Shown here: positions 34,224 to 36,290 of the stretch, one piece after another | Numbering within the stretch: position 1 is the stretch's first letter | Layout of the letters: each line of letters begins with the position of its first letter | Assembly (NCBI GenBank): GCA_964610875.1 | Contig: CAZSWP010000013.1 | Coordinates: 18,872 to 82,871, forward strand | DNA from: an uncultured archaeon | Lineage (GTDB): Archaea; Asgardarchaeota; Thorarchaeia; Thorarchaeales; Thorarchaeaceae | Direction of reading: 5' to 3' | DNA: 64,000 bases | The notes under the pieces: generated by a model | Database searches by the model: none | Told to the model about the DNA's origin: nothing | The model's input: only the letters and a program-made list of their open reading frames with translations | Position numbers and translations under genes: made by a program

Positions 34224-36290
34224 ATGGATATTGCTGGTGAAAACATGTTTGAAATCTCCAAGGCTATGAAAATCAAACTACCTAGTGAACTCCCTCCACA
34301 ACCGAAGTTTGACCCTCAGTATAGGCGTGCACCTAGTAGAGGGTTCAATCTAAGCAAGGGTGAGACCATAACTGCTCTCAAAAATGCTCTCCGTTATGTT
34401 CCTGAGGGACTACATGAAAAGATTGTTCCTGAGTTTCTGAATGAATTGATGACTCGTGGACGCATCTATGGATACAGGTATAGACCAACTGGTGCAATTC
34501 GTGCAAAGCCAGTTGATGAGTACAACGGGACTCTTGAAGCAAGAGCAATGCAATTGATGATGGACAACAATGTTAGCTTTGAAATTGCTCTCTATCCGTA
34601 TGAACTGGTGACTTATGGTGAGTCTGGACAGGTCTGCCAGAATTGGATGCAGTTCCAACTGATTAAGAAATACCTCGAGATGATGACAAAGGAACAGACA
34701 CTCGTTGTCAGTTCAGGACATCCCGTAGGTCTCTTCCCTTCAAAGAGGAACGCCCCAAGGGTAATATCTACTAACGGTCTCATGGTCGGAATGTTCGATA
34801 CTCCTGAAGGATTTCATAAAGCATCCGCGCTAGGTGTCGCTAATTACGGACAGGTATTAGCAGCTCGTTAATACCCCGCAAAGATGACAGCTGGTGGCTG
34901 GATGTATATTGGTCCACAAGGGATTGTACATGGAACCTATATTACATTACTAAATGCTGGAAGACTATACCTTGGACTCCCACAGGACAAAGATTTGGCA
35001 GGTCATCTGTTTGTCACTTCAGGCCTTGGAGGGATGAGTGGGGCCCAAGCAAAAGCCATTGAGATAGCCGGCGGTGTTGGAGTCATTGCTGAAGTGGATA
35101 AGAGTCGTATCGAAACAAGAAGTCAACAGGGTTGGTTAGGTAAGAACTCAGATGACTTGGATGAAATATTTGATTGGGTGCAAGAATACAAAGAGAGTAA
35201 GACCCCTATTTCAATTGGTTACTATGGGAATATTGTTGATTTGTGGGAATATGTTTTGAAGAATAAAGTTGAAGTTGAACTTGCCTCGGATCAGACCTCT
35301 TGTCATGATGCGTATGGGGGTGGTTATACTCCCCAAGGTTTGTCATTCGAAGAGGGACGAGACCTTCTTTGTGAGGATAGGAATAAATTTACCAGACTCG
35401 TTGATGCATCGCTGAAACAGCAATTTGAACTCATAAGAAGCATGCATGAACGTGGTACTTTCTTCTGGGATTATGGTAATAGTTTCATGAAAGCAGTATT
35501 TGATGCAGGAGTCAAAGAGATAGCAAAGAATGGACGTGACACCAGTAATGGGTTCATTTTCCCATCATATGTTGAAGATATCATGGGCCCCATTTGTTTT
35601 GATTATGGTTATGGCCCCTTCAGATGGGTCTGTCTGAGTGGAAAGCATGATGATTTGATAAGTACCGACAAGATTGCTATGTCATGTATCGACCCAAATC
35701 GGCGAGGACAAGACCGTGACAATTACATTTGGATTCGTGATGCTGAAAAGAATGATCTCGTCGTTGGTTCTCAGGCTAGGATTCTTTATGCAGATGCCAG
35801 TGGGCGTGTGAAGATTGCTCTCGAGTTCAATAAAATGGTTAGAGAAGACAAGATTGGTCCTATTATGTTAGGAAGAGACCATCATGACACCGGTGGTACA
35901 GACTCCCCATTCAGAGAAACTGCAAATATCTACGATGGAAGCAATGTGATGAGTGATATGGCTCATCAGTGTTGGGCTGGGAACGCAGCTAGAGGAATGT
36001 CATTGTGCGTCCTGTCAAATGGTGGCGGTGTGGGAACTGGTAAAGCTATCAATGGCGGGTTTGGTCTTGTGTTGGATGGGTCTGAACGGGTGGACAACAT
36101 CATCAAGTCTGCTTTAAACTGGGATGTAATGGTTGGAGTATCTCGGAGGGCATGGGCTAGAAACGACCATGCAATAGAAACAGCTATAGAATGGAATAGA
36201 GAGATAGGAAACAATGGACAGATTACGGTTCCTTACCTACCGAAAGAAGGGTTGGTTGAGGACCTTGTAGAAGAAAAGTTCAAGGAGTAG
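34224..36290 (+). CDS. hutU: Urocanate hydratase (long type), 678 aa after removal of a 30-nt intron; exons 34224-34851 and 34882-36290
   Basis: Two in-frame ORFs join to give the conserved NYGQ-MTAGGWMYIGPQGIVHGT; GLGGMSGAQ, SDQTSCH and GRDHHD motifs. Confidence 0.93.
34852..34881 (+). other. Candidate 30-nt BHB-type intron in hutU mRNA
   Basis: In-frame TAA; stem GGUAUUAG/UUAAUACC; helix ACGG/CCGC with 3-nt bulges ACA and AAA; removal gives YGQ-MTA. Confidence 0.8.

What the first reader, a model, noticed from the sequence alone, without database searches (positions are those of the whole stretch)
34852..34881. Second 30-nt BHB-type micro-intron, in urocanate hydratase hutU
Seen: TAC GGA CAG [GTATTAGCAGCTCGTTAATACCCCGCAAAG] ATG ACA splits the highly conserved YGQMTAG motif and adds a stop. 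It folds as helix ACGG/CCGC (3 of 4 pairs), bulge ACA, stem GGUAUUAGC/GUUAAUACC, bulge AAA. Cutting at AC|A and AA|A removes exactly 30 nt and restores YGQ-MTA. Both halves are otherwise intact, and hutH and hutI nearby are intact, so a pseudogene is unlikely (inference).
Basis: partly seen in the sequence, partly recalled or inferred. Interest (0 to 1): 0.9.

Follow-up and report, generated by a model that had tools for sequence, protein, structure and literature searches.

The report
tRNA-type mini-intron splitting hutU gene
The urocanase gene (hutU) of this Thorarchaeota (Asgard) archaeon is cut in two by a 30-base insert shaped like an archaeal tRNA intron. Comparison with relatives shows the insert is conserved and selected, so the mRNA is very probably cut and re-joined, which papers so far report for essentially one archaeal protein gene (cbf5).

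Summary
Window 34852-34881 is a 30-nt in-frame insert carrying a TAA stop. It splits an otherwise intact urocanase at the conserved YGQ|MTAG motif. It folds as a relaxed bulge-helix-bulge (BHB): H ACGG/CCGC, bulges ACA and AAA, and a 9-bp intron stem.

The comparative evidence is strong:
- Seven other genomes of the same Thorarchaeota family carry a homologous insert of 29-30 nt at the same site. About 60 others are uninterrupted.
- The BHB shows covariation, including an exon-intron pair (Tyr codon UAC/UAU with intron G/A).
- In three alleles the invariant Gln is restored only by the BHB-predicted junction.
- Four further genomes carry a frameshifting 31-32-nt BHB insert at a second hutU site.
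- All 12 interrupted genes become intact ORFs once the inserts are removed.
- dN/dS between intron-bearing pairs is 0.04-0.10, while the introns themselves are identical.
- The genome encodes two EndA paralogues (alpha/beta type) and RtcB.

I could not obtain RNA evidence. The best reading (about 0.85) is an EndA/RtcB-spliced mRNA intron, a new member of the cbf5-type kind.

This scan has noted the same phenomenon in other Asgard genomes, some reportedly with RNA support. I did not check those reports.

The parts
34224..34851 (+). hutU exon 1 (209 codons plus the first base of the Gln codon); Urocanase_N domain
   Evidence: Joined to exon 2 it gives an intact 678-aa urocanase, 75-82% identical to uninterrupted orthologues.
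34852..34881 (+). 30-nt BHB-type intron (third base of bulge 1 + 23-nt hairpin + H_b CCGC + first two bases of bulge 2); in-frame TAA at 34869-34871
   Evidence: Homologous 29-30-nt inserts sit at the same site in G001, G016, G049, G050, G096, G080 and G079. The boundaries can slide by up to 2 nt without changing the product; the BHB rule fixes them here.
34882..36290 (+). hutU exon 2 (last two bases of the Gln codon, then MTAGG... to the stop); Urocanase Rossmann-like and C-terminal domains
34843..34852 (+). Exon-side half of the BHB: h strand AUU (34843-45), central-helix strand H_a ACGG (34846-49), bulge 1 ACA (34850-52; cut after 34851)
   Evidence: Codons AAT and GGA here are invariant in the 8 intron-bearing alleles but variable in 19 alleles without this intron.
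34853..34875 (+). Intron hairpin h': 9-bp stem GGUAUUAGC/GUUAAUACC with loop AGCUC
   Evidence: 6 of the 9 pairs show changes on both sides across the 8 genomes.
34876..34885 (+). H_b CCGC (34876-79), bulge 2 AAA (34880-82; cut after 34881), h strand GAU (34883-85)
   Evidence: Pair 34847/34878 (alignment columns 20/51) is C-G in 5 genomes and U-A in 3, which is exon-intron covariation.
34829..34839 (+). Upstream exon stretch (codons GCG CTA GGT GTC in this genome; GCC CTC GGC GTC in most intron-bearing alleles), predicted to pair with exon 2 (34885-34897) as an extended outer helix
   Evidence: RNAalifold. Identity is 0.83-1.0 among intron-bearing alleles against 0.38-0.69 among the others, while gene-wide identity is equal. 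That the helix itself forms is inference.

Best explanation
The 30 nt at 34852-34881 are an archaeal bulge-helix-bulge (BHB) intron inside the hutU (urocanate hydratase) coding sequence of a Thorarchaeota (Asgard) archaeon.

Proposed mechanism:
1. In the pre-mRNA, the end of exon 1 (AUU-ACGG-AC) pairs with the 3' part of the intron (CCGC) and with the start of exon 2. The body of the intron forms a 9-bp hairpin. Together this presents two 3-nt bulges separated by a 4-position helix.
2. The heteromeric (alpha-beta)2 splicing endonuclease EndA cuts after the second base of each bulge (AC|A and AA|A).
3. The RtcB ligase joins the exons to ...GGA C-AG AUG..., restoring YGQMTAG and a 678-aa enzyme.
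4. Unspliced mRNA would give only a 215-aa N-terminal fragment ending at the intron's TAA.

What is shown: the anatomy, homology-exact boundaries, structure-preserving covariation, selection on the exons, the intron and the exon flank, and the presence of the enzymes.

What is inferred: that cleavage and ligation actually occur in the cell, and that EndA and RtcB are the enzymes responsible.

The intron tracks host clades but is patchy. It is probably old in this family and has been lost precisely many times.
For: (1) Exact boundaries. About 60 family genomes read ...YGQMTAG... without interruption. 8 carry a 29-30-nt insert at this point.

(2) Covariation. 95.3% of cells are paired, against 33-44% when the partners are slid. 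7 of 16 pairs changed on both sides, including exon-intron pair 20/51 (C-G x5, U-A x3; the exon side is the synonymous third base of the Tyr codon). None of 500 shuffles reached the observed covariation score. RNAalifold independently returns H, the 3-nt bulge and h'.

(3) In G001, G016 and G096 the in-frame codon after GGA is CAC (His). The invariant Gln is restored only by the junction CA|A predicted from the BHB.

(4) G079 has a 29-nt, frame-breaking version. Four genomes (G002, G101, G018, G053) have 31-32-nt frameshifting BHB inserts at a second site, YGE|SGQ, with no ATG immediately after it. All 12 genes are intact ORFs once the inserts are removed.

(5) dN/dS is 0.038 for G001-G016 (exon 1 0.045, exon 2 0.035, dS 0.93) and 0.095 for G101-G018. 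This is comparable to an intronless pair at 0.041. The introns of these pairs are identical (30/30 and 32/32) despite that dS.

(6) The exon flank is constrained only in intron-bearing alleles.

(7) Two EndA paralogues are encoded. One is closest to the catalytic subunits of crenarchaeal heterotetramers. The other is divergent and also matches structural subunits (NEQ261, PAE0789). RtcB is present as well.

(8) A chance BHB of this quality in register has a probability of about 1e-5.

(9) The actin gene of the same window has a 30-nt insert of the same architecture. It is conserved in 5 other genomes with H-helix covariation.

(10) The cut rule, between the 2nd and 3rd bulge residues, is as described for cbf5 (PMC2738675).
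Against: There is no RNA-level evidence:
- no near-identical full-length protein exists in the 5.8-billion-protein collection;
- the spliced junction was not found in metagenome contigs.

In this genome the central helix has only 3 of 4 pairs (an A.C mismatch). The minimum-free-energy fold does not leave bulge 2 as a clean 3-nt bulge, and the single-sequence fold energy is unremarkable (z = -1.2).

Exon 2 begins at the conserved Met codon. For this site alone, a two-polypeptide enzyme is therefore not formally excluded.

My genome-wide BHB and ORF-fusion census showed no clear excess over decoys, so I cannot say how many such introns this genome has.
Confidence: 0.85

Rival explanations
1. A genuinely split urocanase. 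ORF 1 (215 aa, ending at the TAA in the insert) and ORF 2 (468 aa, starting at the Met of MTAG) would be translated separately and assemble into an active enzyme. The hairpin would be an intercistronic element.
For: Exon 2 starts exactly at an ATG in all 8 site-2 alleles. An in-frame stop sits at the same place in all 8. Purifying selection on both halves is equally compatible with this reading.
Against: The ATG is the invariant Met of the motif in every intronless allele too, so it was not acquired as a start codon.

Three alleles would replace the invariant Gln by His, unless joined at the BHB cut sites. The two bases before the ATG are always A-R, as needed to complete CAA/CAG.

The pairing between the exon-1 Tyr codon and the insert covaries. 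A spacer has no reason to do that.

The site-1 inserts in the same gene are frameshifting and are not followed by an ATG.

The break lies inside a strictly conserved motif.
Confidence: 0.07
2. A pseudogene: a small palindromic insertion inactivated hutU and the gene is decaying.
For: There is an in-frame stop, and no RNA evidence for removal.
Against: The insert is shared by 8 genomes in 5 genera. Both halves stay intact, with dN/dS 0.04-0.10 at dS 0.4-0.9. The insert itself is identical between species pairs and keeps its structure through compensatory changes. hutH and hutI are intact. A true defect in the family looks different: a 1-nt frameshift in G052.
Confidence: 0.02
3. Translational bypassing or recoding. 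The ribosome would hop over the 30 nt, as in phage T4 gene 60 or the yeast mitochondrial 'byp' elements.
For: A short insert with a hairpin and a stop codon inside a conserved gene resembles bypass elements superficially.
Against: There are no matching take-off and landing codons (GGA/CAG against GCA/AAG). In G001, G016 and G096 a hop in codon units cannot recreate Gln. The conserved feature is pairing of exon 1 with the 3' end of the insert in BHB geometry. That is what EndA needs, not what a bypass needs.
Confidence: 0.02
4. Assembly or binning artefact, or a strain-level indel of no consequence.
For: The genome is a 124-contig MAG with 5.8% contamination.
Against: The same insert occurs, with sequence divergence, in 7 other independently assembled genomes. 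Further metagenome proteins of 467-472 aa start at MTAGG.
Confidence: 0.01

Closest known systems
BHB intron in the cbf5 (pseudouridine synthase) pre-mRNA of Crenarchaeota (Watanabe 2002; Yoshinari 2006; Yokobori 2009, PMC2738675)
   Same: A short intron inside a protein-coding sequence, at a conserved active-site motif. The BHB is relaxed and is cut between the 2nd and 3rd bulge residues. Both lineages have a heteromeric (alpha-beta)2 EndA. The phylogenetic distribution is patchy and was read as gain followed by secondary loss.
   Different: The gene is different (a catabolic enzyme, not an RNA-modification enzyme), as is the phylum (Asgard/Thorarchaeota). There is no sequence homology. Here one gene carries introns at two positions in different lineages. 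Splicing of cbf5 was shown by cDNA and by in vitro cleavage; here it is inferred.
Archaeal tRNA BHB introns, especially the intron-rich tRNA genes of Asgard archaea (PMC11291895; bioRxiv 10.64898/2026.10.13.758758)
   Same: The same motif and the same presumed enzymes. The size class is similar: ARAGORN calls introns in 20 of 35 tRNA genes of this genome, many of 30-34 nt.
   Different: The host RNA is an mRNA. The exon half of the motif must therefore be built from codons, which is visible as synonymous-site constraint. The two papers cited describe tRNA introns only.
BHB intron in the 5' UTR of Haloferax volcanii HVO_1309 (PMC7714728)
   Same: An mRNA substrate of the splicing endonuclease outside tRNA and rRNA.
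   Different: That intron is in the untranslated leader, so the reading frame does not depend on it. Here the coding sequence is interrupted.
Unconventional HAC1/XBP1 mRNA splicing in eukaryotes (Ire1 endonuclease plus tRNA ligase or RtcB); from general knowledge
   Same: It works alike: a protein endonuclease cuts two small stem-loop or bulge sites in an mRNA, and a tRNA-type ligase rejoins the exons and changes the reading frame or product.
   Different: The nuclease is Ire1, not EndA/Sen, and the recognition motif is different. That system is a regulated stress switch; no regulation is shown here.

Membership tests
Archaeal BHB (splicing-endonuclease) intron | [quoted passage not shown] | tested here: met
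   In the window H has 3 of 4 pairs, the bulges are ACA and AAA, h' is 9 bp and h is 3 bp. In 6 of the 8 orthologous introns H has 4 of 4 pairs. This copy is a relaxed form.
Archaeal BHB (splicing-endonuclease) intron | Cuts after the 2nd base of each bulge give an exact, functional exon junction | tested here: met
   The predicted junction reproduces the uninterrupted orthologue sequence YGQMTAG. In 3 alleles it is the only junction that restores Gln.
Archaeal BHB (splicing-endonuclease) intron | Structure maintained in evolution (compensatory changes), including exon-intron pairs | tested here: met
   7 pairs changed on both sides, 95.3% of cells paired against 33-44% when slid; the RNAalifold consensus agrees. 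Only 8 related sequences were compared, so the shuffle counts overstate significance.
Archaeal BHB (splicing-endonuclease) intron | Host encodes a splicing endonuclease able to accept relaxed motifs, and an RtcB-type ligase | tested here: met
   Two EndA paralogues (191 and 207 aa) each have both Pfam domains. One is closest to the Aeropyrum and Sulfolobus catalytic subunits; the other is divergent and also hits structural subunits. RtcB is present. The specificity loop (L1) was not examined.
Archaeal BHB (splicing-endonuclease) intron | Intron actually excised and exons ligated in RNA | not testable with these tools
No RNA-derived or near-identical spliced sequence was found.
cbf5 intron lineage of Crenarchaeota | Located in cbf5 at the catalytic Asp codon; homologous intron | tested here: not met
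   The host gene is hutU and the organism is Thorarchaeota. It is the same kind of element but not the same lineage.
Urocanate hydratase (HutU) | Urocanase N-terminal, Rossmann-like and C-terminal domains in one chain | tested here: met
   Pfam finds the N domain in exon 1 and the other two in exon 2. The spliced product aligns end to end with orthologues.

The most novel reading that the evidence does not exclude
Thorarchaeota may maintain a dynamic population of roughly 30-nt endonuclease-spliced introns in protein-coding genes. These introns would be gained at sequence-defined targets and lost precisely.

Both hutU intron positions lie in phase 1 directly after U-UAC-GGA, so the exon half of the BHB is the same at both. 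HutU has only 8 YG dipeptides in 678 aa, giving a chance of about 0.3-0.4%.

This suggests that an intron can colonise a new site whose sequence pairs with its own 3' segment (CCGN with ACGG), for example by reversal of the EndA/RtcB reaction followed by copying into DNA. The 7-11 state changes on the gene tree would then reflect real intron turnover, comparable to eukaryotic intron gain and loss, in the closest prokaryotic relatives of eukaryotes.
Probability: 0.15. Interest if true: 0.9.

Novelty: new member of a known kind. Interest (0 to 1): 0.68.

Why it matters
In the papers I could search, splicing of a protein-coding sequence by the tRNA-splicing machinery is confirmed in archaea only for cbf5 of Crenarchaeota. 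The other mRNA case is a 5' UTR intron in Haloferax (PMC7714728, PMC2738675).

Here an ordinary catabolic gene of an Asgard archaeon needs such splicing. Its relatives give an unusually clean evolutionary record of:
- covariation between codons and intron;
- selection on synonymous sites to keep the splice motif;
- a second intron position in the same gene;
- repeated precise loss.

There are practical consequences. Gene callers split these genes: databases hold 467-472-aa 'urocanate hydratase' fragments that start at MTAGG. Pathway reconstructions may therefore wrongly score hutU, or actin, as truncated.

Conceptually, it shows that interrupted protein genes and an intron gain/loss dynamic exist in the archaeal lineage nearest to eukaryotes. 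The mechanism is unrelated to the spliceosome.

Tried and rejected
(1) RNA evidence.
- A search of the 5.8-billion-protein collection with exon 2 found the window's own ORF as a singleton. No full-length protein was more than 83% identical to it, and no split/full pair exceeded 94% identity.
- The exact spliced junction (36 nt) gave 0 hits in metagenome contigs.
- A degenerate junction pattern carrying the intron-type exon signature hit 5 contigs. These are GC-rich, distant hutU genes (65-68% nt identity) whose codons match because of base composition. They are not recent intron losses.

(2) Genome-wide census. A BHB scan gave 145,032 loose candidates. ORF-fusion and codon-usage filters then gave counts equal to frame-shifted decoys. 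The only exception was a small excess for L <= 45 and h' >= 6 (22 against 14.6). The hutU intron is recovered, but most other candidates look like gene boundaries. I make no claim about intron number.

(3) Homology between the site-1 and site-2 introns is not significant (32 of 500 shuffles reach the observed score).

(4) A reverse transcriptase as an agent of precise loss: no RVT_1 hit in this 95%-complete genome.

(5) Rfam and ARAGORN found nothing in the window.

(6) The ORF pair 36291-36596/36593-37081 was considered as another split gene. No relatives were found with the second ORF, so it is left open.

(7) Translational bypass, pseudogene and assembly artefact were considered and rejected (see the rival explanations).

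Full report
**The observation.** Window 34224-36290 (+) holds one urocanase gene broken into two same-frame ORFs, 34224-34871 (215 aa) and 34884-36290 (468 aa). Pfam places Urocanase_N in the first ORF, and the Rossmann-like and C-terminal domains in the second. The sequence between them reads ...AAT TAC GGA C|AG GTA TTA GCA GCT CGT TAA TAC CCC GCA A|AG ATG ACA.... Removing 34852-34881 (30 nt) yields ...ANYGQMTAGGWMYIGPQ... and a 678-aa protein that aligns end to end with orthologues. The boundaries can slide by up to 2 nt without changing the product.

The layout is the correct BHB register: h AUU (34843-45), H_a ACGG (34846-49), bulge ACA (34850-52), a 9-bp hairpin (34853-61/34867-75, loop AGCUC), H_b CCGC (34876-79; 3 of 4 pairs), bulge AAA (34880-82) and h GAU (34883-85).

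A single-sequence fold recovers H, bulge 1 and the hairpin. It pairs part of bulge 2, and its energy is unremarkable (z = -1.2). By itself the fold proves little. In a scan of the whole 3.75-Mb genome, a BHB of this quality at L = 30 occurs at 3.3e-6 per position. An in-register match to a homology-defined insert therefore has a chance of about 1e-5.

**Organism and context.** The window is contig C13 of a 124-contig MAG, 95% complete. Its closest hutU relatives are labelled Candidatus Thorarchaeota, so this is an Asgard archaeon. hutH (27848-29374, minus strand, 509 aa) and a hutI-like amidohydrolase (26041-27312, 424 aa) are intact nearby.

The genome encodes two EndA paralogues, each with both Pfam endonuclease domains. 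One is closest to the catalytic subunits of the Aeropyrum, Sulfolobus and Pyrobaculum heterotetramers. The other is divergent and also matches structural subunits (NEQ261, PAE0789). An RtcB ligase is also present. Kaneta et al. (PMC5829648) report the (alpha-beta)2 type with the L1 insert for Asgard archaea. I did not examine that loop.

ARAGORN calls introns in 20 of 35 tRNA genes, many of 30-34 nt. This is a rough count, because the tool does not handle non-canonical positions.

**Relatives.** Of 86 genomes of the same family, 77 have this hutU.
- Eight carry an insert at exactly the YGQ|MTAG point: G000, G001, G016, G049, G050, G096 and G080 with 30 nt, and G079 with 29 nt.
- Four carry a different, frameshifting insert of 31-32 nt at YGE|SGQ: G002, G101, G018 and G053.
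- One (G052) has a plain 1-nt frameshift.
- The remaining short open frames are contig ends.

After removing the predicted introns, all 12 interrupted genes are stop-free ORFs with lengths divisible by three.

**Structure conservation.** I aligned the eight site-2 regions (A1). On this alignment the BHB I specified has 95.3% of cells paired, against 33-44% when the 3' partners are slid by 1-3 columns. Seven of its 16 pairs changed on both sides, and none of 500 shuffles reached the observed covariation score. The sequences are related and few, so the shuffle count is not a probability.

The most telling pair joins the exon to the intron. The third base of the Tyr codon (C in 5 genomes, U in 3) always matches G or A in the intron's H_b. 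RNAalifold, given no structure, returns the same H helix, the 3-nt bulge and the 9-bp hairpin. It also returns a long exon-exon outer helix.

In G001, G016 and G096 the in-frame codon after GGA is CAC (His). The invariant Gln is recreated only by joining at the BHB-predicted cuts (CA|...|A). In all eight alleles the two bases before the ATG are A-R, as that junction requires.

**Selection.**
- dN/dS between two intron-bearing species of one genus (G001-G016) is 0.038, with exon 1 at 0.045, exon 2 at 0.035 and dS 0.93.
- dN/dS between two carriers of the frameshifting site-1 intron (G101-G018) is 0.095.
- An intronless pair gives 0.041.
- The introns of those two pairs are identical (30/30 and 32/32) despite that synonymous divergence, so the intron itself is constrained.
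- Upstream exon codons (GCC CTC GGC GTC ... AAT ... GGA) are almost invariant in intron-bearing alleles, with identity 0.83-1.0. In the others identity is 0.38-0.74. Gene-wide identity is the same in both groups, 0.706 and 0.712.

This last pattern is what is expected if codons must also form the exon half of the splice motif.

**History.** The hutU tree follows the genus labels. Intron-bearing and intron-less alleles are sisters in several genera. At least 7 state changes are needed for site 2, or 11 losses under a single gain. Site 1 needs at least 3 changes, or 5 losses. Intron variants track host clades: CAU... in g2 and g12, GG.A..UAGC in g1 and g8, and GG.UCUAGC in g3. This favours an old intron with repeated precise loss, as was proposed for cbf5 (PMC2738675). 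No RVT_1 reverse transcriptase was found in this genome.

**Same class elsewhere in the window.** The actin gene (14914-16020, minus strand) has a 30-nt insert at 14915-14944, between FQK and MWVS. It has the same architecture. It is present in five other genomes of different genera, with H-helix covariation (CCAG/CUGG, UCAA/UUGA, CCAA/GUGG), and is absent from most.

**An unexplained point.** Both hutU intron positions lie in phase 1 directly after U-UAC-GGA. HutU has 8 YG dipeptides in 678 aa, and TTACGGA is rare in the genome. The introns at the two sites are not significantly similar in sequence. Target-directed insertion is a lead, not a result.

**What is missing.** There is no RNA evidence. 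The protein collection holds no near-identical spliced form. Junction searches in metagenome contigs were empty or hit only distant GC-rich genes. My motif-plus-ORF census could not separate real introns from gene boundaries.

**Comparison with what is known.** PMC7714728 (2020) states that cbf5 is the only reported BHB intron in an archaeal mRNA besides its own 5' UTR case. PMC2738675 says other cases were only predicted. The two Asgard tRNA-intron papers I read (PMC11291895; bioRxiv 10.64898/2026.10.13.758758) describe tRNA introns only. My searches for Asgard or Thorarchaeota mRNA BHB introns found nothing. That is the limit of the held library.

Earlier notes of this scan report the same kind of intron in other Asgard genomes, some with RNA-derived contigs lacking the intron. 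I did not check those.

**Verdict.** This is a BHB intron in hutU mRNA, spliced by EndA and RtcB (confidence 0.85). It is a new member of the cbf5-type kind, with unusually rich comparative support.

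Noticed in passing
window 14915-14944 (minus strand), inside the actin gene 14851-16020: A 30-nt BHB-type insert lies between ...SLKTFQK and MWVSRKEF... It has H CCAA/GUGG, bulges AAA and UAA, and stem GCGGCA/UGCUGC. Homologous inserts occur in G012, G023, G022, G014 and G019 with exon-intron covariation (CCAG/CUGG, UCAA/UUGA). Most family genomes lack it.
   Followed up: partly
L018 (G002, minus strand, oriented 1236-1267); L030 993-1024 (G101); L035 936-967 (G018); L032 (G053, minus strand, oriented 974-1004): A second hutU intron position (YGE|SGQ) carries frameshifting 31-32-nt BHB inserts in three other genera. Like site 2, it lies in phase 1 right after U-UAC-GGA.
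   Followed up: partly
window 36291-36596 and 36593-37081 (+): Two ORFs overlap by 4 nt. The first matches only positions 2-60 of the 154-position Metallophos_2 profile. The second has no Pfam hit and no relatives in 20 related genomes. This may be a split or frameshifted phosphoesterase, or two separate genes.
   Followed up: partly
L031 1050-1150 (G052 hutU): A plain 1-nt insertion (an extra T in ...CTG TTT CCG T TCT CAC...) shifts the frame of hutU in this genome. It is either a sequencing error or a real pseudogene, and it shows what an ordinary defect looks like next to the BHB inserts.
   Followed up: no
G020 C34 end / C117 end; G054 C79 start; G083 C357 end: Several assemblies break a contig at or within about 50 nt of the site-2 junction of hutU. 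This may be chance, or an assembly bubble caused by intron presence/absence variation in the population.
   Followed up: no
protein collection hits P0018, P0022, P0063, P0064, P0071, P0073, P0087, P0101: Public gene calls of 467-472 aa, named 'urocanate hydratase', start exactly at MTAGG and lack the N-terminal domain. They are probably further intron-bearing alleles annotated as truncated proteins.
   Followed up: no
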